From positions 1-64,000 of the IMG/VR virus record IMGVR_UViG_3300025030_000054: 64,000 bases of DNA, one strand, 5' to 3'. Positions 5,265 to 51,495 of the stretch are shown piece by piece. The translations under genes were made by a program, and so were the position numbers. The stretch is from a virus. Within the stretch, counting starts at the first letter, position 1; the number at the start of each line of letters is the position of its first letter. The notes under the pieces were generated by a model. That model ran no database searches. It saw only the letters and a program-made list of their open reading frames with translations, and was not told the origin of the DNA.

Positions 5265-5371
5265 TTTTAGGAATTCGGATAGGTAGAATTGGTAATTACC
5301 TATTTTACTGTTTGGAATTAATGTTTTAAATAATTGTTTAAATACTGTTTTAAATAATCCTCGGAGAGATT

Positions 5372-6742
5372 ATGCCAAAAACTTATGTGCTGGATACGAA
5401 CGTGCTTCTAGCTGACTCAGAAGCCTTTCAGAAATTTGAAGACAACGACCTTGTAATTCCTATCCCCGTCTTAGAGGAACTCGACAGATTCAAAAAAGAA
5501 ATGACAGAGATAGGAAGGAATGCTAGGCAGACTGCTAGAAATCTTGATGCACTCAGAGAACTTGGCGATTTGTCTGTGGGGGTTAAACTTCCTAGCGGTG
5601 GAACTATCAGAGTAGCAGTGGCATTATCTAGAGTACTCTGCAAATTACCTTTAGGGCTTGATGAAAATATACCTGACAATCAGATCTTAGCAGTGGCTGT
5701 AGACTGTCATGGAATTTTGGTATCTAGGGATGTTAACCTAAGAATCAAAGCATCGGCTGTTGGAGTACCTGCTGAAGATTATAAACATACCGCAGTAAAG
5801 GTTGATGAGTTCTATACAGGCACTGGGAGAGGTTGGGTGTCAGGTGAAACTCTTAGCAAAATCTACAGTGATAAGAAATTGAATTTGGAAGATGTGACTT
5901 TGGTTGATATGGAAGTTCCTTACCCAAATCAGTGCTTCACTGTTTATAGCATGGACAATGAGAAGCAAGCGGCTCTTACCAGATACGACGCAGTAATGAA
6001 AGAGTTTGTGCTTCTGCCAGCAGACCTTAAAACGCTTGGCTTGGTCCCTAAAAATGCTGAACAGAGTTATGCTTTGGATTTGATGCTTAATGAAAATATA
6101 AATCTTGTTTCAGTGATTGGTAGGGCGGGTAGTGGTAAGACTCTTTTAGCATTGGCCGCAGCACTGCATGGAGTACTTGAGACAAAAAGATTTACTAAGC
6201 TGCTAATTCTAAAACCTATAGTGAGTGTTGGAAACGCACATAAACTAGGGTACATTCCTGGATCAACGGAAATGAAGCTAGCACCTTGGATGGCCAGCTT
6301 CTTTGACAATATTTCGTTCATTATGGGCGAGCCTACTTTCGACGAAGCACCTCTGAAAAAATCTAAAAAGAAAGAATCATTTGAGGACAAAAGTGCTGCC
6401 AAATTAACTGCGGCAGAAGAGTTAATGGCGTTGGGGTTGCTTGAGTGCGGCAGCTTAGAAACACTACGTGGAAGGTCCTTGCCAAATCAAGCTATCATTA
6501 TCGATGAGAGTCAGCAGCTTACTAACCATGAATTGAAAACTATCATAACTAGGGCTGGAGAAGGTTCCTGCATTTTTATGCTGGGCGACATTTCTCAGGT
6601 AGATTTGCCGTACCTCAGTGAAGATAATAATGGCCTTGTCTACGTAGCTGACAGAATGAAGCACAGTGAGATTACTGCTCACATTACATTAGTTAAAACG
6701 GTTAGATCTAAACTTGCTGAACTTGCTGCGGAGTTACTGTGA
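5372..6742 (+). CDS. phoH: PIN-PhoH protein
   Basis: N-terminal PIN (YVLDTNVLL), Walker A GRAGSGKT, LRGRSL, IIDESQ, GDISQVD. Confidence 0.95.
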   Translation: MPKTYVLDTNVLLADSEAFQKFEDNDLVIPIPVLEELDRFKKEMTEIGRNARQTARNLDALRELGDLSVGVKLPSGGTIRVAVALSRVLCKLPLGLDENIPDNQILAVAVDCHGILVSRDVNLRIKASAVGVPAEDYKHTAVKVDEFYTGTGRGWVSGETLSKIYSDKKLNLEDVTLVDMEVPYPNQCFTVYSMDNEKQAALTRYDAVMKEFVLLPADLKTLGLVPKNAEQSYALDLMLNENINLVSVIGRAGSGKTLLALAAALHGVLETKRFTKLLILKPIVSVGNAHKLGYIPGSTEMKLAPWMASFFDNISFIMGEPTFDEAPLKKSKKKESFEDKSAAKLTAAEELMALGLLECGSLETLRGRSLPNQAIIIDESQQLTNHELKTIITRAGEGSCIFMLGDISQVDLPYLSEDNNGLVYVADRMKHSEITAHITLVKTVRSKLAELAAELL

Positions 6743-7019
6743 TAATTAAAGTAAGGAGAGGAATCCTACAATGCTACTAAAACTACAAAGGAAACTTAAC
6801 CTATACCCATTCTGTAAATTCAGCAAAACTAAAGGAGACAGACTCTGGTACATAACAGCCAAGCAAGGACATAGAGTTTACATTCCTTTCGGAGTTTCTA
6901 TAGCCAAATCTTTAGAAGGACCTTTCAAGATTGTTCTGTATAAATTTTACTTAGGACCTCTAGTTATTAATATAGGAAGAAAAATTTAAATTATTTTCCC
7001 CCAACCCCCAAAATAAAGC

Positions 7020-7049
7020 TTGACAAAACCCACTTCCGTGTGCTATAAT
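7020..7049 (+). promoter_or_regulatory. Sigma70 promoter
   Basis: TTGACA-N18-TATAAT with TG. Confidence 0.75.
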
Positions 7050-7055
7050 GTACCT

Positions 7056-7228
7056 ATAGCTCAGAGAACTAAAAGATTGCCTGAAGGTGTTACTTAATAT
7101 GGAGAGTAACTGGTGACTAGCAAGGATTCCTCCTATCTAAAGTTAGTCCACTTAATGTGTAAAAGCCTAATCTGTTAGTTCGGTGAAGGGGGCTGCTTCT
7201 AACTCAATTAGCAGCTCCCTTTTATTTT
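7056..7228 (+). ncRNA. Candidate structured leader/sRNA ending in an intrinsic terminator
   Basis: GAACTAA-A-AGATT (7066-7078) pairs with AATCT-G-TTAGTTC (7169-7181) and encloses two hairpins; terminator 7186-7221 plus T-tract. Confidence 0.45.
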
Positions 7229-7250
7229 ATCTAAAAGGAGAAAGATTAAA

Positions 7251-7739
7251 ATGTGGTGGAAAAAACTATTAGCAATTAAGGTATCACTTGTAGTAGCAGT
7301 ATTGGCAGTCCTCTTGGTAAACGCAACTGACAGGATACATGAGAGATCGCTTGAAGTAAAGTACCTAAAGCAACAGGTAGAGCTACACAAGAAATTTGAA
7401 ACAAGAATGATGGGCATGGAGTGTAAAGATTTAAGGTCTGTGAAAGTTACCGTAACATCATTCAACCCAGTCAAGAGGCAAACAGATAGTGAACCACTTA
7501 TCGGAGCATCTGGTGAATTAGTTACTCCGGGAATTGTGGCAATATCCAGAGACTTAACTAAGAAGTATGGTATCAAGTTAGGCGATAAGGTAGTTATTGA
7601 GGGATATGGAGTGTTCACTGTAAAAGATTTTACAAATTCTAGGTTCAGGAAACGTGTTGATGTGCTCTCACTCATCCCTGACTTTTCTAAGGAATTTGGC
7701 ATCAAGAGGGGTATTAACCTCTATTTTAATAAAAACTAG
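7251..7739 (+). CDS. 3D-domain cell-wall hydrolase with N-terminal signal/TM
   Basis: VTSFN...QTD...VAISRDL...G..VVIEGYG.FTVKD...RVDVL. Confidence 0.8.
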   Translation: MWWKKLLAIKVSLVVAVLAVLLVNATDRIHERSLEVKYLKQQVELHKKFETRMMGMECKDLRSVKVTVTSFNPVKRQTDSEPLIGASGELVTPGIVAISRDLTKKYGIKLGDKVVIEGYGVFTVKDFTNSRFRKRVDVLSLIPDFSKEFGIKRGINLYFNKN

Positions 7740-10168: not shown

Positions 10169-10472
10169 TCAACCAACGCGCCAGTTAACTAAAAATGAAC
10201 CTATGCAAAATAAACTCTTGTAATCCATGTAGCATTGTGGTAATCTTTCTTATACGGTTTCACTCGTTCTTTTCACTCTCTGAACCGCTTCACCGGTACA
10301 CCTTGTTACATTATCTTTTAGTGAGATTTTTCTAATCTTTCTGGATATGGGATTGTATGCAATAATCGTGCCGGATAGTATCTCATTAAAACTTTCTAAT
10401 GAACCTGGAAAATGGTAATTACCAATTTGAGAGGCTGGCAAGAGAGGGTAAAAAAATAATTGAAAGAAAAGG

Positions 10473-11282: not shown

Positions 11283-12263
11283 ATGAGAAAAACGATTGTA
11301 GCGAACATTGCCGCCATGATGTACTTCGCAGCAAACACCGAAAACGTCGGAAATGTGCCTGTAGACGAAACCAAAACGGAAGAAGCCGGAAAGGTCCAGG
11401 AAGTCCCCGAAAAAGCCAAGGGCAAAATCGGAACAGTCAATCCGGCAAGAGCAGCAGCGGCAGAAAAGGAAAATGAACTTGTGTCGGATGTGCTCAAGGC
11501 AAAAGACGAATTCAAGAAACCGGCGAACGATGAAGAACTGAAAACGCTGATCCACGAGCAATCGACCTACTTCAAAGAAATCGGCGACAATATCAACGGT
11601 GCAAGGATTTCGTCGGCGAAGTTGTGGCCTGTGTGGGAAAATCTCACGCCGATGACTTGGAACGAAAAATCCAACAAACTGGACCTCGGGAAGTTCTGCA
11701 AATCAATCTGGAACATGCTTGAGCCGGAGGTTAAACTTGCTGATCCCATGAAACCCAACACGTTCTTTGCTTGGGCTGAAGCAAGGAAGTACGGCAATAG
11801 CGCGGCCATGACCATCGAAAACATCAGGAACTATGTTAGGAACAACAAAGAGAAACTTTACCCGCATTGGTTCCCTGAGGTAGAAAAGAAGGAAGAAGTA
11901 AACAAAGGCGTGAAAGAAACCATAGACGCCGCTAAAAAAGCAAAACGGGAAGTAGAGGACGTCCTGAAACTCCAATATCTCCCGAAAGAGCAGTATGTCA
12001 TGCTCAACGAGAAAGGGGAGATTATCGAGGGTGCTAAGCCTGTAACCTTGGCCGACCTGCTCAAGGGTCTCATAGAAGAGATTAACAGCCATTTGCCCAA
12101 AGAAGAAACGCCACAAGCAAAGGCCGATAAGAACTATGAGGAGGAGTTGAAAGAACTTCAGGCGGAGAAAGAACAGCTTGCCAAGGAAAAAGCTGAACTT
12201 GAAAAGGAAAAAGCGAAGCTTGCAAAACAGGCGAAACATGCTGAAAAATCGGAAAAGAAATAA
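11283..12263 (+). CDS. Charged protein with C-terminal coiled coil, atypical codon usage
   Basis: 326 aa ORF, visibly more C/G at third positions than neighbours; flanked by hairpins. Confidence 0.8.
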   Translation: MRKTIVANIAAMMYFAANTENVGNVPVDETKTEEAGKVQEVPEKAKGKIGTVNPARAAAAEKENELVSDVLKAKDEFKKPANDEELKTLIHEQSTYFKEIGDNINGARISSAKLWPVWENLTPMTWNEKSNKLDLGKFCKSIWNMLEPEVKLADPMKPNTFFAWAEARKYGNSAAMTIENIRNYVRNNKEKLYPHWFPEVEKKEEVNKGVKETIDAAKKAKREVEDVLKLQYLPKEQYVMLNEKGEIIEGAKPVTLADLLKGLIEEINSHLPKEETPQAKADKNYEEELKELQAEKEQLAKEKAELEKEKAKLAKQAKHAEKSEKK

Positions 12264-12409: not shown

Positions 12410-12616
12410 TTGAAAATGTATAAAATCGTACAAGCTTTCTATTCGGCTAATCGGAAAAACACTTTATGGGAAGAATGGAACGAATTTGTTAGATATGAAA
12501 CCAAAGAATTAGCAGAAAAAGCATTGCCTGCGATTATGGAAGAATCTGAAAAACAAGGGAATTATAGACCCCTTAGGATTGTTAAAACTAGAAACAAAAA
12601 ATTGGTAATTACCTAA
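12410..12616 (+). CDS. Hypothetical protein ending in palindrome-encoded KLVIT*
   Basis: RBS AAGGAG; stop codon lies in the GGTAATTACCTAA motif. Confidence 0.65.
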   Translation: MKMYKIVQAFYSANRKNTLWEEWNEFVRYETKELAEKALPAIMEESEKQGNYRPLRIVKTRNKKLVIT

Positions 12617-12846: not shown

Positions 12847-12892
12847 CAAAAGGCATTAGCCCAATTTACATAAAAGCTAATGCCTTTTGTTT
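12847..12892 (+). terminator. Intrinsic (possibly bidirectional) terminator
   Basis: CAAAAGGCATTAGC...GCTAATGCCTTTTG. Confidence 0.75.
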
Positions 12893-13680
12893 GATCCTTT
12901 ACATGCAAATACTTGAATTAATAGATGTTTTCGAGGATGCCCTACAAAGGCATTTAAACTGGCTACCCTTATCACGGTATTCAGGAAACCTTTTAGGCCA
13001 CTTAAAACGCAATTTAGGCGCATTTAAAGCCATTTTAGGGTATACCTTACTATGCCCCAAAAATAATAGGCACCTTAAAACGCAAATTTCAGGCTATTTT
13101 GTTGCAAACTTTAACTATAACTAACGGGATACCTGAATAACAGCCAGGTATTATGTAAGTATAGCTATATCTGTATACTTTTATGGCTATAGTTGCGCCT
13201 ATTGGGTAATTTGCTAACAGAAATTGGTAATTACCTATTTTGAGTGAATGTCTGGTTAAAGGATAGATGAAATTGGTAATTACCTATTTTAGAGGCTGGC
13301 AAGATGGATTGTCTAAGTGACTTGCTAAATTACTTACAGGATATTCCAGTATTCTACTAAAAACCTTGTAAGTAATTTAGCAGGTAGTTTAGAGAGTATA
13401 CAGAGCCGGGAAAAATTGGTAATTACCTATTTAGAGGCCGAAAAGAGGGATTTTGGGGTAAATTGGGTGAATGACCTTGGGAAACCCTTGTAAGTACCTG
13501 ATATTACGTTGTCGGGTGGCTGGAAATGGACCTTTTAAAAGGGGTCGTTTTGGGCGAAGAGTTTTCATCAAAATGGTTGATAGTAGTGGAAAAGGTACCC
13601 CTATAAAAGTATGGCTAAAAGGTTGATGATTTCTTACGCGGAAAAGAGAGGACGCCAGTTTTGCGGGGTTCTGTAAGTTA

Positions 13681-13732
13681 TTGAAATCACTACTTGAAAT
13701 CACTACTTGAAATCACTACTTGAAATACTACC
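13681..13732. repeat. 13-bp tandem repeat TTGAAATCACTAC x3 plus degenerate copy
   Basis: Read directly. Confidence 0.9.
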
Positions 13733-13784
13733 CTAAAATCACTTGAATAATTACCTAAAATATTATCTGTTAGACTGTTAGTTA

Positions 13785-13892
13785 TATTACTTGGAATATT
13801 ACTTGGAATATTACTTGGAATATTACTTGGAATATTACTTGGAATATTACTTGGAATATTACTTGGAAGATTACTTGGAAGATTACTTGGAA
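13785..13892. repeat. 12-bp tandem repeat (T/G)ATTACTTGGAA x9
   Basis: Read directly. Confidence 0.95.
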
Positions 13893-14386
13893 AACAATCC
13901 AGTCAATTTCGGGCCACGGTAAATAGTATCTAAAGTTATGTCTAAAGTTGTTATAGGCTGTTCTTTGGCTGTTTACAAAATTATCCAGGAAATTATCTTT
14001 GAAAACTATTTAGCATACAACCAAGAAACATCTAAATTGCTAGCTAAATCATTTTCAGAATTAACATCCTACCCTCACAATGTAAATTTAGGTAATTACC
14101 AATTTTTCAGACTCATAGAAAGGATACAAAACAAATTGCTACGCTTTAACAGAGAACTCCTAAACAAACTAAGCTCCGCTAACAAAACTCAGGAGAACAA
14201 CAAAATGAGAGCCGTACTTTCACCCTCGGAAAAAGACACTATCCCAAGAGTTTACGCGGATCTTACGATTCTTTGCCAAATTACTAAGCTGTTCACTGTA
14301 GAAGAGCTTAAAGTTTTAGAATCGGCTCAAAAGATTATCGGCCAGGTTATTGATGAAGATCGTTATTTGTAGTTGGTTAGCTGACT

Positions 14387-14587: not shown

Positions 14588-14874
14588 GCAACTCATCAAA
14601 ATTCATAAAATAGGTAATTACCAATTCAACGAAGCTAGCAGTTTTAACAAGCTAACTAGGAGGATTACCATGAACATAACACGGAAAGTAATGCAACAAG
14701 TACTGCAAAACGTCCTGGAAAGAGGAAATGGCGTAGTTTCTGGCGAACCTTTTGCTCTTGATTTTGAAGGCCACATAGTAGACGTTCTAGGAAATAGACT
14801 GGAAACAACCAAGCAAAGAGAGTCCAGGTTAATCTTGGAAATGCTTAGTCTTTCTTCCAATAGGAGGACTAACC

Positions 14875-15321
14875 ATGCCTAAGAAAATAATGACTTTGGG
14901 AAAACCTCGTATAGAGAAACGTCTCAAGTCTAACCTGATAGATGAAATCTCTAGAATGACCAATCTCATGCACCCTCGTCATCATAAATGGGCCTATTGT
15001 TGCCAGTTAGATGAAAAGGGCAACATAAAAATGTTTGACCAATGGGACCATACGATTTTGGTATGTAACTACTTTCTGATAACTAAGGCTCTAATTGACG
15101 AGACAGGTAGCTATGTTCTGGAAACTTTCTATGATTATGAACTGTTGCCTGAAGATTTGGTTCAGATAGAGAAAGATGTAAACATAGCTTTGATAGATAA
15201 CATCCATTTCTGGCGCAGAGAGTCAAAGTTTGTATTTTGGCTTGAGCGCAATGCTGCTAGACTAAATGGAATGTCGCCCAACGTAGCTATGGCGTACATT
15301 CGGAAAGAGTTTTACGTGTGA
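14875..15321 (+). CDS. Hypothetical protein
   Basis: RBS AGGAGG, 148 aa. Confidence 0.65.
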   Translation: MPKKIMTLGKPRIEKRLKSNLIDEISRMTNLMHPRHHKWAYCCQLDEKGNIKMFDQWDHTILVCNYFLITKALIDETGSYVLETFYDYELLPEDLVQIEKDVNIALIDNIHFWRRESKFVFWLERNAARLNGMSPNVAMAYIRKEFYV

Positions 15322-16638
15322 TTTTCGGACACTGATTATGTAAATGAAATAGGTAATTACCAAAATCAACTAAACCACTATAAAATTAGTACATAAGGAG
15401 AGTCAGCCATGCTATTTGTTATTAAGTATGAACACATTTTTGTAACTTTCGGCGCTATTTCTGTGTGTTTTGTAAGTACTAAACTGATACCTTTCGAGTA
15501 ACTTTAAAGGAGGCTTAAAAATGACTACCTGGAAAATTGTGGCATTTAACGGGACAGCAAAAGAGTATAGTTGCTCCATTGAGAAGGCTATCTCTCGGTT
15601 TTGTCGTGAGAATAATCTTCAGAGACTTGATATCTTTACGGTTATTCAGGTACACAGGGAGGTACAAAAATGATCTGGTATTTCTTTGCTTTGCTGTCTT
15701 GGGTGTCAATCTTTGTTTGTGGACTCTCATCGGTATTTTTGCGTGACCTGAGTGACTTTGGTGCTAAGGCTTTACTAATATCAATAGTCTACCTAATCGC
15801 CTACTACACTTACTAACAAGCTATCGGTTTTACCAATACCAAATAAATTCAAGGGGTTATATAAAATGTCGTATTTCATGAAAGACCAAGTTGACAGAAA
15901 AGCTAAAATGAACAGAATCTGGAACAGCGTGGAAACACTGTTCTATGAATTCGCTGACGGAATTATTAGCACAGGGAAGGAGTTCTTGGCTAAAAGTTAA
16001 AAATTGGAGGCACTATGTTCTGCACAACTTGTTTATCTAAGGTAGAGGAGATAGGCTCAGACATTTTTGTAAATGATTCCGAGGAGTTAGTAGAAGAATC
16101 CCAGATGCAGTGTGTTGCCTGTGGAGCCTTCGGAAGCATTTTTGTGGTTAACTGTTCTACAATTGAATATTTTGGAGTTTACGAGTCACCCTCGGAAGTA
16201 ATGGGTTAGCTGAAATTGGTAATTACCTATTCTGAACAACTTGAAAGGAGGTACTTATGCGCAAATAATCTAAAAACAAATCAAGAAGAGATTTTGGGCA
16301 CTACCTAACGTGAATGCTAAGTGCTCACTATCAGCAACCTAGAGAATTGGCTCTAGGATTGCTTAGAAAACTCAACTTTAGATTATTAGAAGTAGAGTCT
16401 TGTAAGCAATTCTAAAACCTTTAAAGGATAGCACTGTGAACACTAAAATAAAAGACAAAATAGAAGAACTTCTAACAACTATCAGAGGAACTGATTCTGG
16501 TAAATTTAATAATATGATATACCTAGGGAAAGGTTTTTCTAAACAGAACCTTGACGATGCTTTGGAAGAAATTAAGGAAATGCTTAGTCATAACTTAGCG
16601 CGCACTGAGGACCAAGCCAGGATTATCAATCAGAAATG

Positions 16639-17118: not shown

Positions 17119-17372
17119 CTCAGAAGCCATATTTTAAGCACAAGGAGGACCAAAGTGCTAAAACCAATTATGAAGGCTTATCTTGTCAATAGAGATTTGT
17201 ATAGGTTCAGAGAATCACTTAGACAGTTTCTTAGGGGAGATCCGTCCTCTGAGTCTAACAAACTGTATCTGAAGAAAAAGGCTGGAGATTTCTTCTACGG
17301 ACAGCAATACAAAACAATCATTGAAGCAATAAATAACCTATAAATTGGTAATTACCTAAAAAGGAGCCTACC

Positions 17373-17858: not shown

Positions 17859-17894
17859 AATTGGTAGTTACCTAAATAATTTGGAGGATAAACA

Positions 17895-18131
17895 ATGAAA
17901 AGATTGCTTCTGATTCTTTGCATAGCTGTTTGTGTGTCTGGATGTGATTATAAGTATCAGTACGAAGAGATAAATGCACTACAAAAGCCTGTAATAGTCG
18001 CAGCGACAAGCAGAGATGGAGGAATACTTTTACGAGGGGGAGACGGCAAAGTTTATTTGGCTAACAGCACCACATACCTGGGACTGACTCTTAAAGACTG
18101 CAAAGTGGGAGACGTGATAGTCCCTAAATAG
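17895..18131 (+). CDS. Small lipoprotein
   Basis: MKRLLLILCIAVCVSGC lipobox-like signal peptide. Confidence 0.6.
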   Translation: MKRLLLILCIAVCVSGCDYKYQYEEINALQKPVIVAATSRDGGILLRGGDGKVYLANSTTYLGLTLKDCKVGDVIVPK

Positions 18132-18444
18132 GTAATTACCTAAACCAAACACGGAGGCTACAAAATGAGTGCTAAGAAAAACAAAGCAACAGGGCCTAGA
18201 GAGTGTTACACTATGCAGTTGTTCGGCTGGGAACCTGTAGTGTACCTGGACTTCAACACGGCCTACAAACTTATGCTGTCCTACATGGCTATGGAAGGGT
18301 GTGTTCCTAACATAGTTTCTGAGCAGATAATGGAGAAGTTGAATGGGGCATCTAAACAAGCAATCGTCTATGGTTTGAACGGTGGTTTGAAGGTTGACGT
18401 TTCAGTAATTTTCAGAAAACTTTCCTTGGTTACGGAGGTCACTG

Positions 18445-18948: not shown

Positions 18949-21290
18949 GCTTTTTATTTGCATTTTGAAAAATAAATTTATAATAAAAGTTAGGGGTAAA
19001 GTAATATTTTTATTGGATACTCACTTAAAGGAGGTGCCAAAATGCCCACACTTAAAGAGAATTTGACCAACATAGTAAAAAGGCTTCAGTATATTCAAAA
19101 CGCTGCGAATTACGCCGCAATGGAGACTGGGCATGACGCGGTAATAGATGCATATCGCGCAATAGAGGCTGATGTAATAAAATGCAGAAAAGCCATAGAC
19201 TCTATTTCAGATTTGGTGGGGTGACTCCTATGGTCGAAATGTTAGCACTTAGATCGTTTAATTTGCGTCTCGCTTCATATAAACGCGGCCAACTATTTTG
19301 GATATCCAAGGATTTTGCCAAATTGTTGGAAATGTCCGGCGATGCAAAACCTGTAACATAAACCAATCAGAAAAATAGGTAATTACCAAAACCAAAGGAG
19401 AAAAAATATAATGAATCCGGTGATGTTGGTTGTGATTACAGCAGGTATCTTTCTTTTGGCGTTCTTCTACAAGAGATGGGAGGTTAGAAAGACTACTGAG
19501 AAGGATAATGCTCACAACCTTGCTCACGTAAGAGGCAGTTGGATGTTATATGGATGGGATCACATCTATCTCAAGTGTGCTAGGTGTGGTACGTGTATAG
19601 GTCACGGTGGAAAGTTACACTGCAAATGTGACGAAAAGAAATAACTGAAAAAATAACTATAAGATAACAACAAAAGGAGTCCAAAATGCCAACTCAAATA
19701 GAACCACCGGTCTGGTATGACATAGAGCCGGACGAGAAGAAGGTTAAATGCGCCTACTGCAAACGTCAGGGACCTACAGAAGACTTTATCTACCTCGAAA
19801 GGAGAAACAAGTTAACTGATCTGATAGTCCACAAGGAGTGTGTCGGCCAGGATTTTCTAAATAGAGCTGAACACAATCTTACGCCTAAACGTAGAACCGT
19901 GGCTAAGATATGGCACTCTAGAGGCTGGCCTACCAAAATCAAACTGGTACATCATAAATCAGGAAAGATAAAAGACTTCTCAATCCCTAAAGAGTTGAAG
20001 AAGCCTAAGAAAAAGAAGTAGCTGAAATATGAGGTATAATGCTAATTATTTAGAGTAGATTGGCATTATATCTAATATTTTCGCTGTAAAATAGTTAGGT
20101 ATTGGTTCTTCTTTGAAGAGCGCCTAACGAACTGTCTTACAAATTGACAGTTGCTGCGCTTCCATGACCACAGAGGGCACTACAAAATGTTTTTTACCCA
20201 CACTTCCTACATTTGCACCTGTCTTTCTTCAATCCTCGTAGCACAATCCGCAACAAATCTTTCACATCTCTTAGCAACAACTCTCAAAATCACTCTCCGA
20301 ATCACAGAACAAATCCCCCAAAAGTACTTTCAAAATCTCCCCTCTAGGCATTTAATCAACAACCTCACCAGCTAATTCCCAAACTGTTTTCAAAATCAAA
20401 CGTAGTTATATTATGTATTGAGAGTAATTTCAATACTTTAGGGATACTTTTGTCTTAAATCTGGAAAATGGTAATTACCAATTTACTTGGAGTATGCACT
20501 TTTGCGTCTACTTTCCATGAATTTATAAAATAGTGTTTTAAAATTGATCTAACCAATTACCTTAAATGAAGGACCAACGCTATCGGAAAAACCGATACTA
20601 CAAGGAGTCTACCATGAGCCAAAGCCTGTTAGTTAGAGACGAGAACCTTCAGAAATTGGATTACACACACTGCGGGACTAAAGGCGGTAACGTAAGGAAC
20701 CTCAAACTCTCAATGACCTGTCAGCGTTGCGGTTCGGAATCTGAAGAACTTATTTGTGATAAGTGTAGAAATGAGCAGCCGAAGAGAGGCCAAGCTAGAA
20801 CACAATCTGGATGGGAACAACTTCTGAAGCACGTTACGGTTTCTGGCTGCGATGTTTTGGTTAATGGAAAGATAGAACAGAAGTGTAAAGATTCATTTCA
20901 TGCTGAGGTAGTTAGGAAGGCGTTGAACAAAATATACCTTAAACATAACCTAGAATGTCTCTCTCACATTAAATAGGAGGTTAACATGCACAGAGTATGT
21001 GAAGAAGCTGATATATTTTGCATGGATTGTAGCTATGGAGTTCCTCACCTAGAGGCCGGGAAAGAGACTCATCTGTGTGGCTTTAAGTTTAGAGAGGTAA
21101 AATTAGTTCCTGTGGTCTTTGAGGCGGTGATGAGTTCAAAGTATTCTAAGCAGTATGACCAGAATCGCGACAGGTTTTATGGCGTGGAGTATGACCCTTA
21201 CACCAAGAAATCCTGTGATTGTAGAGACAGGGACTGAGGTTGTGAGCGGGTGAAATTGGTAATTACCTAAAAAGAAGGAGTTAACTGGGT

Positions 21291-23683: not shown

Positions 23684-24290
23684 AAATGATTATCTCAAAA
23701 TCTGGATTGCCGCACGCCGAGCAGTATTTAGTGGCCTTGAAAGAACTACGTCAGCAGTATTTGGATTGGCGACGTGGCTCTGTGACGTGCCCTTTGTGTT
23801 GTGTACTTCGAGATTGTTCTGAGTGCCCTTGGCGAACACTTACGGGAGCGAATTGTTTCAGTAGCTTACGGGGTCTAAAACAGAAAAACAAAATTCTAAG
23901 AAAATTCAAGTTTCTAAGAAAAATTGCTCTAAAAATTAACCGACCAATAGCCAAAAGAATCAAAGAGCTGGACCTTTGGATAGCTATTTACAAGCAGTAC
24001 ATCCACTACATCAAAAGAGGTATGCCGCCAGAACTCGCCATGAAACTTACTAAATCACTTTACGGAGACCTTCTAAATGAGGCTAGAAATTAACCTAGGA
24101 ATACTAAAGTTCAGTCTCAGCAAGTCAGGACTCCGTGTAGGAACCAAGATAGGAGATACTTACGTCTCAAAAAGAGTTGTGAAAACTGGTGCTGTGAGTA
24201 AAAAGAAAGAGAAATTGGTAATTACCGAAAAAGCTGCTAAGCGTGTGAAATAGTTCAGACGCTAACTAAGACCCCAAAAGGAGATCTGAG

Positions 24291-25706: not shown

Positions 25707-25963
25707 GTATTTCTTGAGACTTTGGTAATTACCTATTTTTACACAAACAACTAAACGAGGTAGACAATGCCTAAGAATAAAGACAGAGTGGTAACTGTAA
25801 TGGTAGTGCATACAGCAGCAAACGGTGAAGAAGTTATCAAATCGTTAAATCTTAAAATACCAGACGGCGTATTAGCGAGAAACTTTGCAGCCACTACGTT
25901 TGCAGTCATCGAGAGTTTACTGACCGACTAAACTAAACTAAACTAAATCAAAGGAGAACTAGA

Positions 25964-28247: not shown

Positions 28248-28291
28248 CCTGAAAATGGTAATTACCTAAATCAACTAAAAGGAGACGAGAG

Positions 28292-29665
28292 ATGGAGAAA
28301 GGATTCGTAAGAACTGCGCCCAGCCCTACTGGACGACCTACGTTAGGTACTTCTAGAACGGCGATTTACAACTTTCTACATGCAAGACAGCAAGGTATGG
28401 GGTATTTAACCAGGCTAGAGGACAGTGATCCAGTACGCTCTAAGCAAGAATTCGCTGACGATATTATAGAAGGACTTGCGTGGCTTGGGATAGTATCTGA
28501 CGTGCCAATCATAAAACAATCTGAGCGTGGAGATATATATGCAAAATACGTGGATCAGTTGTTAGCCGAAGGTAAAGCATACCGGTGTTACTGTTCGGCT
28601 GAGAAGTTAGAAGCGGATCGGGAGAGGAAACTAGCGGCAAAAGAGAAGCCTATTTACGACAGAACTTGCTTAGGGCTTGGTGAGCAGCCGGGCAAGCCTT
28701 TTACGGTGAGGCTGAAGGTGGATACCTACGGCGCTGTGACTTTTCGGGATGCTGTGTACAAAAGGGTGAATGTGAGGAAGGCAGAAATTGGAGATTTTAT
28801 TGTTCAAAGAAGTGATGGCACAGTAGGGTACCTTCTATCTAACGTAATTGACGATGCTTTGCAAAATGTTACTATGGTTATAAGAGGCCGCGATGGAATT
28901 AGTAACGCTCCCGCACAAATTTTATTGTATGAGGCTCTCGGTTTTCCAGTACCTAGCTACGCCCACGCCGCCTTTATATTAAACGAAAAAGGTCAGAAAC
29001 TTTCCAAGAGGAACGGAGATGCCTCACTATTGGACTACCGCGATAAAGGTTACTTGCCAGAAGCTATGTTCAACGCCCTCGCAAGAATAGGAGCAAGTTT
29101 CGGGGATAGGGAACTGTTAAGTGTAAAGGAGATGGTAGAGCTATTTGACCTAAAAAATCTTAGTAAATCCGATGGCGTTTTCGACCCTCAAAAGCTTCTT
29201 AACATCAACAAGCACTGGATCAAAACCATTGAACCAGAAAGATTACAAACACTATTAACCCCATTCCTTCTTAAAGAACAAATAACCGAAGAACAAATAT
29301 CCGAATTTAATAAAGTATCTTCAGTAAGTAAGGCAATCCAAACGCTACAAACTCGCTCGGCCACCCTTGTAGAAATGGCTCAAAAGGCTAAATTCTACTT
29401 CATACGGCCAGCCTATTCGTCCATCAGTTTAACAGGATTTCAAAAGGCAATTTTACAGTCATTCATAGACAACCTAACCAACAACAACTCAATAGACGAA
29501 GCCATAGAAGAAACCTGTAAGCAAGCTAACTGCACGATAAAGGAACTTGGGCCGCCGGTTAGATTATCCCTCTCAGGCTCTCTTGCAGCACCCGGAATAG
29601 TAGAAATCATTGAAGTTCTGGGGACCAAAGAAACTATTGAAAGGATTAAATTGGTAATTACCTAA
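28292..29665 (+). CDS. gltX: Glutamyl-tRNA synthetase homolog with divergent HIGH motif
   Basis: RTAPSPTG, RLEDSD, QSER, AYRCYC, VIRG, KLSKR, FDPQKL, anticodon domain PVRLSLSG. Confidence 0.92.
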   Translation: MEKGFVRTAPSPTGRPTLGTSRTAIYNFLHARQQGMGYLTRLEDSDPVRSKQEFADDIIEGLAWLGIVSDVPIIKQSERGDIYAKYVDQLLAEGKAYRCYCSAEKLEADRERKLAAKEKPIYDRTCLGLGEQPGKPFTVRLKVDTYGAVTFRDAVYKRVNVRKAEIGDFIVQRSDGTVGYLLSNVIDDALQNVTMVIRGRDGISNAPAQILLYEALGFPVPSYAHAAFILNEKGQKLSKRNGDASLLDYRDKGYLPEAMFNALARIGASFGDRELLSVKEMVELFDLKNLSKSDGVFDPQKLLNINKHWIKTIEPERLQTLLTPFLLKEQITEEQISEFNKVSSVSKAIQTLQTRSATLVEMAQKAKFYFIRPAYSSISLTGFQKAILQSFIDNLTNNNSIDEAIEETCKQANCTIKELGPPVRLSLSGSLAAPGIVEIIEVLGTKETIERIKLVIT

Positions 29666-33380: not shown

Positions 33381-33677
33381 AATTAATTACTCCTGAAACT
33401 ACTTTCGATATGGTTACGTTTGACCTAGAAAATCCTGCCATAGACCCCTTCGTAGAAAGGTTGAATGAACGGGAAAGGCTAGAAAGTGGGCACTGCTGGG
33501 TTTGTTGCAATGAGTTTGACAAGGGATCTGGAAAATTACTTAGAGAATCAGACCCTAACTGTTACGAAATAGCCAACCGTTTAGATGTTTGTCCAAGTTG
33601 TTGTGGAGTTGTTAACCCAGACGCCTTTAATTTCTACTGAGCTAAGAAATTGGTAATTACCTATTTAGGAGGAACTG

Positions 33678-36046: not shown

Positions 36047-36490
36047 CTACTAACCACATCGTAGTGCCTAGATAGTCCTTGGAGGGAAAAATGAGCAACA
36101 AAGTGTTTTGCCACGATTGTGGGTTGCAGTATGGCGGAGATGCTTGGATAGAAGCTGTGGTGCCGGACCAGATATGGGATCAAATACGCCCGACAGGTAG
36201 TAGTAAGGGTTGTGGCATACTCTGTGTTTCATGCATTGCCCGGAGGCTGCGGATATTGGGAATGAAAGATGTTCCAGTATGGTTCTGTGGGACTGAGCCT
36301 TTAATTGCTGTCGGAGGAGACCCTTCGGACCGGTTAGACCTTTTGAGAGGATAGGCTGTCTGTTACGGGCACAGTCTTATAGGGTAGCCCCGCACTTGTT
36401 TGCTAGAAAAATACTAGAAGGTAAATTTAACCAACCTTAAACCAACAACTAACCAAATAGGTAATTACCTAAATCAACGGAGGGAACAAA

Positions 36491-40455: not shown

Positions 40456-41274
40456 ATGGATGAGAATAGCAAGCAGGGAGGTGAGGTGATTGAGAGTGTG
40501 GATTTAGGTAATACCAATTTAGAGCCTAAGCACAGGGAAAATTCATCTAAAGAATTATTTCAAAAAGATCCGGCAAGGTATTGGTACATTGAAGGAATGA
40601 GAGACGAAATAGAGTTACTGTACGAAGAGGCGGCTACTAAATACACCGCTGCGTACACTCAGGCAATTAGGGAAGGTAGATCTTCCGCGTTGCCTTACAA
40701 GTGGGAAGCCATGCGGTGTATTGAATTTGCAGCGATTTATAAAGGTTTAATGGATGAATGGGCAGCTACTAAAAATACTGGCCGAATGATTGACGAGCAT
40801 CAGCACATGGTTCACTGGTATGATGAGAAATCAGTGGTACCAAAAGAATTACTCGACGTGTACAAGAAAAAGGTTCCTGCGGGATTTCTATATAACGTAG
40901 TAATATATAACAGAGAAAATAAACAATGCCGGTTTGTCCACTCACTAGATTATCATAAGGACTCTGACCCTCTTATGGATAGAGAGTATGTTGCATATCC
41001 TGGAGGGTTTGTTCAGGCAAATGTGTATATCAAAGACCCTGAAGTTATCTTTCACAAGTGGATGTTAACCTCTAATAAACTTAATGACACACACGATTTC
41101 AGGAATGCGGTTAAGAGAAGCATCAGACTGAGGTACTTGCAAATGCCTGATTCGCTTAGACAAGAAATGCACAAGAGTAGTGTGTACAAAAAGTATGTGG
41201 CTCCCGCTATTGGAAATCGTAGTGTGGGTAGTTTGTTCGATGACTTTGTTGCCTACAAGGCTGGGTTAGTATGA
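40456..41274 (+). CDS. Hypothetical protein
   Basis: 272 aa ORF with RBS AAGGAG. Confidence 0.7.
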   Translation: MDENSKQGGEVIESVDLGNTNLEPKHRENSSKELFQKDPARYWYIEGMRDEIELLYEEAATKYTAAYTQAIREGRSSALPYKWEAMRCIEFAAIYKGLMDEWAATKNTGRMIDEHQHMVHWYDEKSVVPKELLDVYKKKVPAGFLYNVVIYNRENKQCRFVHSLDYHKDSDPLMDREYVAYPGGFVQANVYIKDPEVIFHKWMLTSNKLNDTHDFRNAVKRSIRLRYLQMPDSLRQEMHKSSVYKKYVAPAIGNRSVGSLFDDFVAYKAGLV

Positions 41275-45119: not shown

Positions 45120-45165
45120 TTGGTAGCAAAATAGGTAATTACCTAAATCTTAAGGAGGGGGTACA

Positions 45166-45900: not shown

Positions 45901-47004
45901 ATGTCGATTTTAGATAAATTTGCCTCACTTATTCCACTTGAAGATTTAGAAGAAGGAGCTAAACAACAAATTTACAACATCCTGAAACTTGACTGTTTAA
46001 AGAAACTTGCATTGATGCCAGATGCCCACCAAGGCTATGATATGCCTATTGGTGGAGTGGCTTTGCTAGACGGATTTATCTCAGCTAGCTTCGTGGGCTA
46101 TGATTTGGGATGCGGCGTATGCCATATAGCTACTGAAGAAAACGCAGAAGACTACTCAAAAGATGATTTACAACACATTTATAAGACTATCCACAAGACT
46201 ATTCCGACAGGGTTTTCTTCACATTATCATTCTAAAGACTATCTTCCTAAGTTTAAGTCTGCGATTCTTGATAAACAGACCACTGACAGAATAGCAGAGA
46301 AGGTTGACTTTCAGCTTGGTACACTAGGCGGTGGAAACCACTTCATAGAAATTGGAAGCAATAGGAAAGGTAAACTGGCGGTAACTATCCATTCTGGCTC
46401 TAGGAATGTGGGACATACTATCGGCGGGGCTTATATGAAGATGGGTCGTATGTTTGAACTTTCTTCGGAACTAGGTCAGTCTTACCTGAGAGACATGAAC
46501 TACGCACTTGACTGGGCTTTGGAAAACAGAATGCAAATGATGCGGAAGGTTTTAGAAGCAATTGGGATTAATAATAAAAATATAACGGTAGTCTTGAAGG
46601 ACGTTATAAACGAGAACCATAATCATGCTGTAGTTACTTCTGAAGGTGTTTTGCACCGTAAGGGAGCTACTCCTGCTGATTTAGATCAACTTGGTATTAT
46701 TCCGGCTAACATGCGAGACGGAGTTTATATTACTAGGGGTTTAGGTAATACCGAATTTTTGTCATCAGCTAGTCACGGTTGCGGTAGGCTTATGGGAAGG
46801 AACGTAGCTAAGAAATCTCTAGACTACGATGAATTCGTAACTCAGATGGAAGGTATTGTATGCTCCACCGACAGAAGCATTTTAGATGAGGCTCCAAATG
46901 CCTATAAAGATGTTAACTATGTGCTTGATGCTCAAGTTGGTAGGACTGTGGAAGTTGTTGATTTTATTAAGCCTTTGCTAAATATTAAAGCAGGAGGAGA
47001 CTAA
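45901..47004 (+). CDS. rtcB: RtcB RNA ligase
   Basis: MPDAHQG, VGYDLGCG, GTLGGGNHFIE, HSGSR, HRKGAT, SHGCGR, DEAPNAYK. Confidence 0.96.
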   Translation: MSILDKFASLIPLEDLEEGAKQQIYNILKLDCLKKLALMPDAHQGYDMPIGGVALLDGFISASFVGYDLGCGVCHIATEENAEDYSKDDLQHIYKTIHKTIPTGFSSHYHSKDYLPKFKSAILDKQTTDRIAEKVDFQLGTLGGGNHFIEIGSNRKGKLAVTIHSGSRNVGHTIGGAYMKMGRMFELSSELGQSYLRDMNYALDWALENRMQMMRKVLEAIGINNKNITVVLKDVINENHNHAVVTSEGVLHRKGATPADLDQLGIIPANMRDGVYITRGLGNTEFLSSASHGCGRLMGRNVAKKSLDYDEFVTQMEGIVCSTDRSILDEAPNAYKDVNYVLDAQVGRTVEVVDFIKPLLNIKAGGD

Positions 47005-49302: not shown

Positions 49303-49304
49303 GC

Positions 49305-49361
49305 TAGGGTATGGGGGAGTTAAAAAGTCCCTCTACAAGCAATCCTCGTTCGTTTTAGAGG
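49305..49361 (-). repeat. Double-hairpin dispersed element, copy 3 (partial)
   Basis: 37/38 identity to 16639-16676, then CTCCCCCATACC as in copy 2. Confidence 0.8.
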
Positions 49362-49630
49362 TGGTTGTGGAGGATAATATGGAGGAGTTTTATTATGAGA
49401 AATATTGTGACTGAAGAAGAGGCAGCTACGAAACGGTGCCCTCAACTCATGGGTAGGTCTGATCTTGTAAATCGGTATTGCAAAGGATCTGACTGCATGG
49501 CTTGGCGGTGGCATTCTGAGGAGACACTAGAGAAGGGCTATGGAGAGAAAACTGTGGTACTAAAATATGGGTACTGTGGTAAGGTGCCTTTAACATGAAA
49601 TTGGTAATTACCTAAAAAGGAGAAAATAAT

Positions 49631-50380
49631 ATGGCATTAGTTTCGGGCGACAGCCATGGTAACCTCAACCGCTTAAAAGCATTCCTGAGATACAAACCTG
49701 AAGAGGAACACATTCTAACAGGAGACCTAATGGACTCCTACATAGCGTCCGACACAGGTATTATAGAGACCTTTCAGTTGTTTCAAAAATCAGATGCATT
49801 AGCAACATGGTCGAACCATGATACGGTTTACCTAAAAAACTGTCCTGGACAACTGATGTGCTCAGGTCATCGTACTAACCCAATTTTCGGTCATCTGATA
49901 AACGGCAGCAAGGATAAATACAGAGGGTCGTTTGTAAGAGATGGCTACCTGATAACACATGCAGGAGTTGTGGAAGAGATTGGTAGTAGGTTCTCTGACC
50001 TAGAATCTTTAAGCGAGTATATAAACACTGAGATAGATAAGATTGTCTATAACGAGGAAATTTGGGTAGATAGTCCTTTGTCGGATGTGTTTAATATCTC
50101 TGTTGTGAGAGGAGGTTACCATAAGTACGGCGGACCTCTATGGGCTGATTACAGAAGAGAAAAATATGATTGCACCAAGAATCAAATCTTTGGACACTCT
50201 CATTCGGAAACTTTGAAAATCTTTAACTACGGAGATGATGAAAACGAGAGGAAGCATGTCGCTGTAGATTGTAGTGAGTTTAGCTGTTTTAACACCAAGA
50301 CTGGCGCAGCAGAGGATTTCATGTTTCCTGCTTTTAAAGATGGTCCTGCGGTAAGAAAACTGTTGGAGGTCGGGTACTAA
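49631..50380 (+). CDS. Calcineurin-like metallophosphoesterase
   Basis: GDSHG, GDLMD, SNHD, THAG, FGHSH. Confidence 0.88.
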   Translation: MALVSGDSHGNLNRLKAFLRYKPEEEHILTGDLMDSYIASDTGIIETFQLFQKSDALATWSNHDTVYLKNCPGQLMCSGHRTNPIFGHLINGSKDKYRGSFVRDGYLITHAGVVEEIGSRFSDLESLSEYINTEIDKIVYNEEIWVDSPLSDVFNISVVRGGYHKYGGPLWADYRREKYDCTKNQIFGHSHSETLKIFNYGDDENERKHVAVDCSEFSCFNTKTGAAEDFMFPAFKDGPAVRKLLEVGY

Positions 50381-51350
50381 TGGTCAGAAAACAATTTACT
50401 TTGTTGGATTCTTTAAGATATCCAGAGAGCTACAATTCAAATTATCTTGAAGGCTCATATACAGAGGACGGTTCATTACATTTTTATGGGTATTGGGATG
50501 AACGTAAGAAATGTTGGATACCTCTGAGCGAGCTGAAATACTATTCGGAATAGGGGAGGGTTATGATACGTGTAGAAGTAGACTTATCTGACATTCCTAA
50601 ATGGGCACAGACTAATGATACCGACGCCTTCTCGTGCTATATTGCTGGAGAACTCAGTGCAGCAGGTATTCCTATAGTTGGAAGTCCTCTGCTGTCTAGG
50701 GTAGATTTTACTAAAGGAACGTTACTAACTTGGTACGACTATGAAAATGATAGGAATATTTACTTATGGAAGTAGAGGAGGACAAAATGAAATGGAAAAA
50801 GAAAGAGAAGATTTATCCTAAGGAATACTCGACTAGACAAAGATATATTTTTACTTGGTATCCTGTAACAATAAGCGGAGAAACTCGTTGGCTATGGTTT
50901 TACAAAGTGGAGGAGATACATTATTACGGTACGTGCAGGCTTCTTGGAGATGAGAAATTCTATCCCGAGTTTGGATTTTGGAGCTACAGCCGGTGGATTG
51001 ACTAAAGGAGGGTAAAATGAATTCTAAAAAAGAGATTTGGATAACTAATAGCGGTGAAGTTCTAGATGTTGATGAGATGACCGAAGATCATGTTAGAAAT
51101 ACCCTGAAGATGTTGATAAAGCAAATTAGGGAAGGCAAGCTTGGTTGTCTGGGGTACCATCAGGATAGGATAAATATGGAGAGGCGTATGGAAGAACTGA
51201 GGGAGATTCATCCTAGTCTTACTACTGGGATTAGGGAGTATGGTGTGGATGGTGGGTAGGGGTTGTGTTAGGGAGTGGGTAGGGACTAAGGCAGTTGTTA
51301 GGTAAACCTTATAGTCTATATTATATATCTCGTCCGAAACGGACGACCTT

Positions 51351-51379
51351 ATTATACCACAGAAATGGCTTTTTGTCAA
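51351..51379 (-). promoter_or_regulatory. Antisense sigma70 promoter into non-coding unit
   Basis: TTGACA-N17-TATAAT with TG; hairpin TCGTCCG-TTT-CGGACGA at the expected start site. Confidence 0.85.
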
Positions 51380-51495
51380 GCTTTTTCTTCAATGAAATGA
51401 TTATTTTATTTTAATGTTCTGATTTTGGTAACTACCTAAAATTTAAGGAATAAGGACTGTCAAGAGAATTATATTTAGTGATTTGTATAATTCTC

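What the first reader, a model, noticed from the sequence alone, without database searches (positions are those of the whole stretch)
5291..51436. Palindrome GGTAATTACC punctuates gene boundaries across the early region: operator/stoperator network or cassette recombination site
Seen: 23 exact copies plus 2 variants by manual count (positions in features). A given 10-mer is expected well under once in 64 kb. Flanks are conserved (AAATT-GGTAATTACC-TA) and both orientations occur. Copies are densest at 12.6-21.3 kb and absent from the terminase operon and the replication block beyond 51.5 kb. Most lie between one gene's stop and the next RBS. The motif supplies or abuts the stop codon of at least six ORFs (ends 12616, 17343, 17858, 18131, 29665, 49598), and single genes sit neatly between two copies (17373-17858, 17895-18131, gltX). 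Established: mycobacteriophage L5 stoperators are multi-copy repressor sites at gene junctions, and integron attC sites delimit single-gene cassettes. Inference: either a region-wide shut-off/roadblock system read by a dimeric DNA-binding protein, or a crossover site for gain and loss of gene cassettes. No recombinase is visible in this window.
Basis: partly seen in the sequence, partly recalled or inferred. Interest (0 to 1): 0.9.

Follow-up and report, generated by a model that had tools for sequence, protein, structure and literature searches.

The report
Phage's private intergenic palindrome, cassette-linked
This uncultured T5-like phage carries about 30 strictly conserved copies of one short DNA palindrome between its small early genes. 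Each related phage has a different palindrome of the same design, so it is most likely a docking site for an unidentified phage protein, and accessory genes are sometimes swapped at these sites.

Summary
GGTAATTACC occurs 23 times in the window and 26 times in the 105.7-kb genome (about 0.05 expected), plus 3 one-mismatch copies, and 24 of the 26 lie outside gene interiors.

The functional unit is about 20 bp (AAATW-GGTAATTACC-WAWWT). Strain variants that are otherwise only about 80-85% identical keep it letter-perfect at 26 of 29 aligned motif sites.

Four relatives have no GGTAATTACC, but each has 22-35 copies of its own palindrome in the same stop-motif-RBS position. T5 itself has none.

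Hairpin stability is marginal in two lineages, and the flanks show no selection for pairing. I therefore favour a double-stranded DNA site read by an unidentified phage-encoded dimer (0.45). This is inferred, not shown.

The cassette idea is partly right. One locus exists in three natural forms: motif alone, motif-gene 44-motif, and motif-unrelated gene-motif. Breakpoints are enriched about 2-3 fold at motifs, but roughly 80% lie elsewhere, and G000-G002 encode no recognisable recombinase.

It is not an L5-type stoperator (symmetric, no lysogeny genes), not an attC site and not a PeSL.

This scan has already reported private phage palindromes on other phage DNA, and Cluster O mycobacteriophages show the same kind of repeat, so this is a new member of a known kind.

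The parts
5291..5300 (.). palindrome copy, between the Zn-ribbon gene (5043-5264) and the PIN-PhoH gene (5372-6742)
   Evidence: In strain G003 an extra ORF is inserted on each side of it, and only about 19 bp around the motif are shared.
10414..10423 (.). palindrome copy in a non-coding stretch, followed by the shared word TTGAGAGGCTGGCAAGAG
   Evidence: Core kept in L149 and G003.
12604..12613 (.). palindrome copy; the TAA right after it ends ORF 12416-12616
   Evidence: A replacement breakpoint lies 6 nt from it in L149 and L228.
13226..13235 (.). palindrome copy, first of a 3-copy cluster in the 1.1-kb non-coding region
13275..13284 (.). palindrome copy, cluster member
   Evidence: Deleted in strain L228.
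13418..13427 (.). palindrome copy, cluster member
   Evidence: Lost in strain L228.
14091..14100 (.). palindrome copy (inverted flank form)
   Evidence: L228 has a 213-nt insertion 5 nt after it.
14613..14622 (.). palindrome copy, 47 nt before the start at 14670
15352..15361 (.). palindrome copy after ORF 14875-15321
16218..16227 (.). palindrome copy after ORF 16015-16209
   Evidence: Gene 16015-16209 is absent in L149 and L228, with the deletion edge 11-13 nt from the motif.
17347..17356 (.). palindrome copy, 16 nt before the start at 17373
17863..17872 (.). variant copy GGTAGTTACC; left border of the gene-44 cassette
   Evidence: The same site reads GGTAATTACC in L149 and L198.
17895..18131 (+). 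gene 44, a 78-aa lipoprotein-like ORF: a cassette that is present, absent or replaced between strains
   Evidence: L198 has one motif and no gene here. L149 has an unrelated 167-aa ORF (619 nt) between the same two motifs.
18131..18140 (.). palindrome copy; right border of the gene-44 cassette, 24 nt before the start at 18165
19378..19387 (.). palindrome copy, 23 nt before the start at 19411
   Evidence: Gene 19411-19644 is absent in L149, with the deletion edge 4 nt from the motif.
20470..20479 (.). palindrome copy in a 190-nt non-coding gap
21258..21267 (.). palindrome copy, 23 nt before a member of the large paralogue family (21291-21647)
24217..24226 (.). palindrome copy inside the 3' end of the small ORF 24077-24253
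25724..25733 (.). palindrome copy, 33 nt before the start at 25767
28257..28266 (.). palindrome copy, 25 nt before the GluRS start (28292)
29653..29662 (.). palindrome copy forming the last codons of GluRS (stop at 29663-29665)
33652..33661 (.). palindrome copy, 16 nt before the start at 33678
   Evidence: Strain L178 has a 343-nt insertion 12 nt upstream of it.
36460..36469 (.). palindrome copy, 21 nt before the conserved 527-aa gene (36491)
   Evidence: The orthologue in G002 has that phage's own palindrome 23 nt upstream.
45134..45143 (.). palindrome copy between the DNA ligase stop (45119) and the start at 45166
49603..49612 (.). palindrome copy, 18 nt before the start at 49631
51427..51436 (.). 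variant copy GGTAACTACC in the divergent-promoter gap
58011..58020 (.). degenerate copy GGTATTTACC between primase and the next gene
   Evidence: G002 has its own palindrome at the same junction (37918).
40507..40515 (+). short-centre variant GGTAATACC with motif-like flanks, inside a gene
46744..46752 (+). short-centre variant GGTAATACC with motif-like flanks, inside rtcB

Best explanation
The roughly 20-bp unit AAATW-GGTAATTACC-WAWWT is a sequence-specific docking site on double-stranded DNA for a still unidentified, phage-encoded protein that binds as a symmetric dimer.

It marks the junctions of the early and accessory genes. It most likely modulates their transcription, either as an operator or roadblock inside the long operons fired from host sigma-70 promoters, or by organising this DNA.

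Every phage of this environmental T5-like lineage has the same arrangement but its own word, so site and reader must change together.

Because the same 20 bp recur at many junctions, they also give related co-infecting phages short patches of homology. Through these, single accessory genes are inserted, deleted or replaced.

Shown here: the copies, their placement, their conservation, the private words of relatives, and the cassette polymorphism.

Inferred: that a protein binds, that it is a dimer, that it acts on DNA, and what it does to expression.
For: Over-representation and placement: 26 copies against 0.07 expected, and 92% outside gene interiors.

Purifying selection: at 26 of 29 aligned motif sites, strain variants keep a perfect core, and positions -5 to +14 are 93-100% identical against about 80-85% around them.

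Relatives have their own palindromes of the same design at stop-motif-RBS junctions:
- G001: GTAGAA-N4-TTCTAC, 29 copies;
- G002: TTCCGA-N4-TCGGAA, 26 copies, plus 9 with N3;
- G004 and G006: TTCA-N4-TGAA, 26 and 34 copies.
None of them has GGTAATTACC.

Some junctions carry the local word in two genomes. For G000 and G002, 3 shared 'upstream of the same gene family' positions were seen against 0.42 expected (p=0.003).

Invariant arms with a free centre are the usual footprint of half-site readout.

Against a structural reading: no covariation for pairing in the variable flanks of any of five genomes, and 26-nt hairpin energies of only -2.7 kcal/mol in G000 and G004.

Against a promoter reading: the motifs are not host promoters or terminators.

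Precedent for site sets that track their reader: stoperator motifs correlate with repressor distance (PMC6550527).
Against: No reader was found. There is no XRE-type HTH and no ParB in G000, and about 95 proteins scanned against Pfam or PHROGs gave no plausible sequence-specific regulator (the only DNA-binding matches are the HTH domains of the homing-endonuclease-like proteins).

The positional candidate (gene 11283-12263) folds as helices plus a coiled coil with no informative match.

Two centre lengths share the same arms: N3 and N4 in G002, and GGTAATACC four times in G000. That is unusual for a rigid dimer.

The sites have a roughly 3:1 polarity relative to transcription, which a symmetric operator does not need.

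Positional conservation between genomes is weak outside the G000-G002 pair.

How some 30 dispersed sites change word together is unexplained.
Confidence: 0.45

Rival explanations
1. The element works as a folded hairpin, in the mRNA or in single-stranded DNA. A phage or host factor reads it to process, stabilise or translationally control each early cistron. It sits just after a stop codon and a few bases before the next Shine-Dalgarno sequence.
For: The four lineage-specific motifs (five genomes) are stem-centre-stem with a 4-nt centre that varies in sequence, and G002 also has a 3-nt class.

G001 and G002 hairpins are stable, at -7 and -9.7 kcal/mol.

The sites have a roughly 3:1 polarity relative to the sense strand, and the four short-centre variants in G000 are all in sense orientation.

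12 of 26 copies lie 16-33 nt before a start codon.

The phage is rich in RNA enzymes: PIN-PhoH, RtcB, an RNA ligase and a CCA-adding enzyme.
Against: G000 and G004 hairpins are marginal at -2.7 kcal/mol.

In G000 the bases flanking the core are mostly T and T, a mismatch, and no flank position in five genomes covaries towards pairing.

Conserved stems with free loops is the reverse of how most RNA-binding proteins read hairpins.

Copies also sit before or beside intrinsic terminators and between convergent genes (66528, 79106), and in long non-coding DNA (13.2-13.4 kb).
Confidence: 0.2
2. The element is primarily a recombination site. It is either the target of a dedicated enzyme (an integron-like or nuclease-driven cassette system) or a boundary sequence kept only because it allows accessory genes to be exchanged.
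For: There is a three-allele locus: empty, gene 44, or an unrelated ORF, each bounded by the motif.

Gene-sized indels abut motifs at 12598, 16207, 19391, 14105, 33640 and on both sides of 5291.

Break edges within 30 nt of a motif: 12 of 52 against 6.6 expected for random gene boundaries, and 14 of 100 against about 4 in the G004/G006 pair.

Copies concentrate in the plastic region of small ORFs.

Interrupted N4 palindromes resemble sites of dimeric nucleases (from general knowledge).
Against: About 80% of break edges are not at motifs.

G000-G002 have no tyrosine or serine recombinase and no Y1 HUH enzyme.

The centres vary within a genome, which blocks recombination by known site-specific recombinases.

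Copies also sit at conserved junctions of core genes (primase, the tape-measure-like gene).

Passive homology does not explain a palindromic design that is kept while the word itself changes.
Confidence: 0.12
3. The element is a small selfish repeat of the REP or MITE type that spreads through intergenic DNA and is replaced by a new family in each lineage.
For: Copies within a genome are identical, yet relatives with 73% TerL identity carry an entirely different word. Site positions turn over quickly. The sites are intergenic and palindromic.
Against: No RAYT or Y1 transposase is encoded. The unit is only about 20 bp and has no target-site duplications. Strong purifying selection acts on orthologous copies. 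Some junctions are conserved with the local word. Intragenic short-centre variants also exist.
Confidence: 0.1
4. The element is a phage-specific promoter, of middle class, read by host RNA polymerase with a phage factor. Each small gene would thus carry its own start signal.
For: It lies 16-33 nt before many start codons. At 100340, and at its G002 counterpart 74531, it sits between a terminator-like hairpin and the Shine-Dalgarno sequence of a long gene, with no room for another promoter. T7-type phages change whole promoter sets together with their polymerase (from general knowledge).
Against: No phage RNA polymerase or sigma factor was seen in the proteins scanned. The words of the four lineages share no -10-like element, and G002's is GC-rich. 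The design is symmetric. At 66528 the motif precedes a terminator, and at 79106 it lies between convergent genes. Copies are also rare before the late operons.
Confidence: 0.08

Closest known systems
17-bp dyad-symmetry repeats of Cluster O mycobacteriophages (Corndog group), TGTTCGG-N3-CCGAACA (PMC4351075)
   Same: More than 30 copies per genome, invariant inverted arms with a variable centre, mostly between genes or near 5' ends. They lie apart from the SigA promoters, and their function and reader are unknown.
   Different: The sequence, host and phage lineage are unrelated. All five Cluster O phages share one word, whereas here relatives carry four different words. Here strain variants also show motif-bounded cassette replacement.
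PeSL (promoter-early stem-loop) cassettes of T4-type phages (PMC2839356, PMC4122927)
   Same: Short conserved intergenic motifs in the plastic regions of small ORFs. They act as points of exchange, so that single genes are inserted, deleted or replaced between close relatives.
   Different: A PeSL is a composite of a terminator stem-loop and a host early promoter. The element here is a bare 20-bp palindrome with no sigma-70 promoter or terminator. Its word is also private to each phage.
Stoperators of Cluster A mycobacteriophages (L5 gp71 type; PMC9283540, PMC6550527)
   Same: Tens of dispersed copies of one short word at gene junctions. Each genome's word tracks its own reader. There is a polarity relative to transcription.
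   Different: Stoperators are 13-bp asymmetric sites read by a monomeric two-domain immunity repressor in temperate phages. Here the site is dyad-symmetric, no such repressor or lysogeny genes are present in G000-G002, and the phage looks lytic and T5-like.
Integron attC sites
   Same: Single-gene cassettes, each followed by one copy of a palindromic element. Empty and filled alleles both exist.
   Different: There is no IntI-type recombinase. The element is 20 bp rather than 57-141 bp of imperfect palindrome, it has a conserved sequence rather than a conserved fold, and it is not an array behind one promoter.

Membership tests
Cluster A stoperator system | Many copies of one short word dispersed at gene junctions | tested here: met
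   26 exact plus 3 variant copies, 92% outside gene interiors.
Cluster A stoperator system | Asymmetric 13-bp site read by a monomeric repressor | tested here: not met
   The core is a perfect 10-bp palindrome, with dyad symmetry at positions +-1-5 and +-7. The family definition comes from PMC9283540.
Cluster A stoperator system | Predominantly one orientation relative to transcription | tested here: inconclusive
   Only the flanks are asymmetric: T..T against A..A is 15:4 (p=0.02). About a third of the sites are fully symmetric.
Cluster A stoperator system | Immunity repressor and lysogeny functions (integrase or parABS) in the genome | tested here: not met
   G000-G002 have no HTH_3 match above cut-off, no ParB in G000 or G001 (G002's only ParB_N match lies inside a 1774-aa ORF), and no tyrosine or serine recombinase. 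A divergent repressor cannot be excluded.
Cluster O-type dyad repeats (a descriptive kind, not a homologous family) | At least 20-30 copies with invariant inverted arms and a short variable centre, mostly intergenic, distinct from host promoters | tested here: met
   The same design is seen in G001, G002, G004 and G006.
PeSL | Composite of a stem-loop terminator and a host early promoter | tested here: not met
   No sigma-70 consensus lies within 50 nt of any perfect copy in G000 (only the degenerate copy at 51427 lies about 50-65 nt from two divergent consensus promoters). No terminator-like hairpin accompanies the early-region copies. The conserved unit is only about 20 nt.
PeSL | Indel and replacement breakpoints between close relatives fall in the motif | tested here: met
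   The three-allele locus at 17863-18140. 12 of 52 and 14 of 100 break edges lie within 30 nt of a motif, which is enriched, but most edges are elsewhere.
Integron attC / IntI | IntI-type tyrosine recombinase encoded next to the array | tested here: not met
   PF00589 is absent from G000, G001 and G002.
Integron attC / IntI | 57-141-bp imperfect palindrome recognised as a folded strand, with structure conserved rather than sequence | tested here: not met
   The unit is 20 bp and its sequence is invariant. The hairpin energy is -2.7 kcal/mol, and there is no covariation towards pairing.
REP / RAYT | Cognate Y1 HUH transposase (RAYT) | tested here: not met
   PF01797 is absent from all five genomes.
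KorB/ParB-type global operator set | ParB-family reader | tested here: not met
   PF02195 is absent from G000, G001, G004 and G006.

The most novel reading that the evidence does not exclude
A whole lineage of T5-like phages runs an undescribed system. In it, a reader from no known DNA-binding family recognises a short palindrome that is reprogrammed in each phage, to four different words so far. The system both controls single-gene accessory cassettes and actively drives their capture and exchange, making it a lytic-phage counterpart of the integron.
Probability: 0.08. Interest if true: 0.85.

Novelty: new member of a known kind. Interest (0 to 1): 0.5.

Why it matters

This lineage is a favourable case for two reasons. 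It also has natural alleles showing single genes entering and leaving at the motif.

Tried and rejected
Sigma-70 promoter or intrinsic terminator at the motif: rejected for G000-G002. A few G004 copies do sit 8 nt from, or inside, TTGACA promoters.

Host regulator boxes (LexA, NtcA, CRP, Fur): spacing and sequence do not fit. This rests on memory and was not tested.

Known RNA family: no Rfam match in the window. No tRNA genes in G000.

- Pfam or PHROGs on about 95 proteins found no plausible sequence-specific regulator.
- Gene 11283-12263 lies next to the palindrome cluster, its G001 and G002 orthologues have the local motif 37-59 nt upstream, and identity between genomes is only 20-27%. Its AF2 model (pLDDT 72.8) gave only coiled-coil matches.
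- The conserved 201/241-aa protein at 55386-56111 looks like a DnaC/IstB helicase loader.
- The Atlas gave nothing for gene 17373-17858.
- PDB sequence searches were empty.
- The FmdB-type Zn-ribbon protein (5043-5264) is present in all genomes and is a weak lead only.

Trait in T5 itself: absent.

Exact 17-mer in IMG/VR: only chance single hits.

Strict synteny of sites between genomes: weak.

Full report
**Observation**

GGTAATTACC occurs 23 times in the window at the stated coordinates, against 0.05 expected from dinucleotide-preserving shuffles. The window is bases 1-64000 of a 105,687-bp IMG/VR phage record (93% complete), which holds 26 exact copies; the other three are at 66528, 79106 and 100340.

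One-mismatch copies with motif-like flanks lie at 17863, 51427 and 58011. A position matrix of the 29 sites gives a 20-bp unit, AAATW-GGTAATTACC-WAWWT. Dyad symmetry holds at +-1-5 and +-7 but not at +-6, where T on both sides is preferred. The T..T form outnumbers A..A by 15 to 4 (p=0.02).

Twenty-four of 26 copies lie outside gene interiors, which cover all but 12% of the genome. Twenty-five of 29 lie in 5-51.5 kb (p=3e-6). About half sit 16-33 nt before a start codon with only the Shine-Dalgarno sequence in between. The rest lie in longer non-coding DNA, including a 3-copy cluster at 13.2-13.4 kb beside tandem 12- and 13-mers, or next to terminators in the late region.

**What phage this is**

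The large terminase is about 30% identical to those of T5-like phages (Demerecviridae). The genome encodes a family A DNA polymerase, DnaB-like helicase, primase, ligase, SbcCD, PIN-PhoH, GluRS, RtcB, an RNA ligase and a CCA-adding enzyme. It has about a dozen consensus sigma-70 promoters, and no perfect palindrome copy lies within 50 nt of one (only the degenerate 51427 copy lies between two divergent ones).

**Relatives**

Two complete relatives, G001 and G002 (TerL 74% and 73% identical), contain no GGTAATTACC. Each has its own multi-copy palindrome:
- G001: GTAGAA-N4-TTCTAC, 29 copies, most often GGTAGAAC-WW-GTTCTACC.
- G002: ACTTCCGA-YRYR-TCGGAAGT, 26 copies, plus 9 with a 3-nt centre.
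- G004 and G006 (TerL 45%): AATTCA-NNNN-TGAATT, 26 and 34 copies.

Simulations give 0-3 expected copies for these patterns. In all of these genomes the element sits between a stop codon and the next ribosome-binding site. T5 itself has no over-represented palindrome.

Site positions turn over quickly. Only G000 and G002 share more 'upstream of the same gene family' positions than chance, 3 against 0.42 (p=0.003). These are before the 527-aa gene, before the tape-measure-like gene, and before gene 18165. In addition, the primase junction holds G000's degenerate copy and G002's own palindrome.

**Selection**

Metagenome contigs with the same word (L149, L198, L228, L178, and G003 from IMG/VR) are strain variants about 80-90% identical to G000. 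At 26 of 29 aligned motif sites the 10-bp core is letter-perfect in the strain variant. Positions -5 to +14 are 93-100% conserved against about 80-85% in the surroundings. The unit is therefore under purifying selection as a sequence of about 20 bp.

**Double-stranded DNA or hairpin**

Minimum free energies of 26-nt windows are -2.7 kcal/mol in G000 and G004, -7.0 in G001 and -9.7 in G002. A stable fold is thus not a shared property.

In none of five genomes do the variable flank positions covary towards pairing; if anything they pair less than expected. Invariant arms with a free centre fit readout of two half-sites on duplex DNA.

Three things fit that reading less well:
- two centre lengths with the same arms in G002;
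- four sense-oriented GGTAATACC copies inside long genes of G000;
- the roughly 3:1 polarity relative to transcription.
I record these as unexplained.

**Cassettes**

Between gene 17373-17858 and gene 18165 there are three natural alleles:
- L198 has one motif and nothing else.
- G000 has motif, gene 44 (78 aa, lipoprotein-like), motif.
- L149 has motif, an unrelated 167-aa ORF (619 nt), motif.

Other gene-sized indels or replacements end 4-13 nt from a motif, at 12598, 14105, 16207, 19391 and 33640. At 5291, strain G003 has an ORF inserted on each side, and only about 19 bp around the motif are shared.

In numbers, 12 of 52 distinct break edges lie within 30 nt of a motif, against 6.6 expected if edges fell on random gene boundaries. 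In the independent G004/G006 pair the figure is 14 of 100 against about 4 expected (p=1e-4). Breakpoints are therefore enriched at motifs, but about 80% are elsewhere.

G000, G001 and G002 encode no tyrosine recombinase, serine recombinase or Y1 HUH transposase. The variable centres would also block known site-specific recombinases. Homologous exchange on a conserved 20-bp island, as proposed for PeSLs, is sufficient.

It was not found. There is no XRE-type HTH and no ParB, and about 95 proteins gave no plausible sequence-specific regulator against Pfam or PHROGs (the only DNA-binding matches are the HTH domains of the homing-endonuclease-like proteins). The positional candidate (11283-12263) gave an uninformative helical model. 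The conserved FmdB-type Zn-ribbon protein (5043-5264) is only a lead.

**Comparison with known systems and verdict**

The closest known kind is the 17-bp dyad repeat of Cluster O mycobacteriophages, whose function is also unknown. The exchange behaviour matches PeSLs, but the composite promoter-terminator is missing. It is not an L5-type stoperator, because those are asymmetric, read by a monomer, and found in temperate phages. It is not an attC site either.

Earlier notes of this scan describe private palindromes of the same kind on other phage DNA, and another reader noted this same palindrome in an overlapping window.

My verdict is that this is a real, selected, lineage-typical element. 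It is most likely a protein docking site on DNA with a side role in gene exchange, and it is a new member of a known but unexplained kind.

Noticed in passing
window 12860-14000: A 1.1-kb non-coding region with tandem repeats: a 12-mer ATATTACTTGGA x9.1 at 13784-13892 and a 13-mer x4.8 at 13681-13743. It also holds three palindrome copies and looks like an iteron or origin region. G001, G002 and G004 have comparable clusters of 3-5 palindromes in non-coding DNA.
   Followed up: partly
window 5372-6742, 22319-23683, 24291-24842, 28292-29665, 39880-40434, 45901-47004: A dense set of RNA and tRNA-related enzymes: PIN-PhoH, CCA-adding enzyme/poly(A) polymerase with an HD domain, RNA ligase, GluRS, an HD phosphohydrolase and RtcB. 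G000 has no tRNA gene, whereas relatives carry 1-7, including tRNA-Glu(UUC).
   Followed up: partly
window 21291-47352 and relatives: A large paralogue family of proteins of about 110-130 aa, with 56 members across five genomes. Four G000 members have the palindrome directly upstream. There are no Pfam matches.
   Followed up: partly
window 10431, 13292, 13434: The word GAGGCYGRMAAGA directly follows three palindrome copies in non-coding DNA. This may be a small RNA or a leader.
   Followed up: no
window 40507, 46744; genome 71185, 77529; G002: Short-centre variants of the palindrome: GGTAATACC in G000 and TTCCGA-N3-TCGGAA x9 in G002. They have motif-like flanks and lie mostly inside long conserved genes.
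   Followed up: partly
window 3266(-), 3418(-), 3451(+), 7020(+), 18948(-), 51379(-), 51496(+): Perfect or near-perfect TTGACA-17/18-TATAAT promoters. Several are antisense to the local genes.
   Followed up: no
G003 (L133) 2089-5822: The near-identical strain fragment joins the two ends of the G000 record through about 3.7 kb that G000 lacks. The G000 record is therefore cut there rather than ending at true termini.
   Followed up: partly
G001 (L033-L038): A second multi-copy word, GGTAACATGCAAGGTA (9 copies), lies partly beside the palindrome cluster at 78-79 kb.
   Followed up: no
G004 63984-64484 and 38727-39134; G006 6982-7473 and 93645-94049: The G004/G006 sub-lineage encodes a tyrosine and a serine recombinase that G000-G002 lack, so it may be temperate.
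   Followed up: no
window 51519-52841 (-), 3684-4682 (+), 59040-60101 (+); genome 72629-73540: Four homing-endonuclease-like genes (GIY-YIG or HNH with several HTH domains).
   Followed up: no
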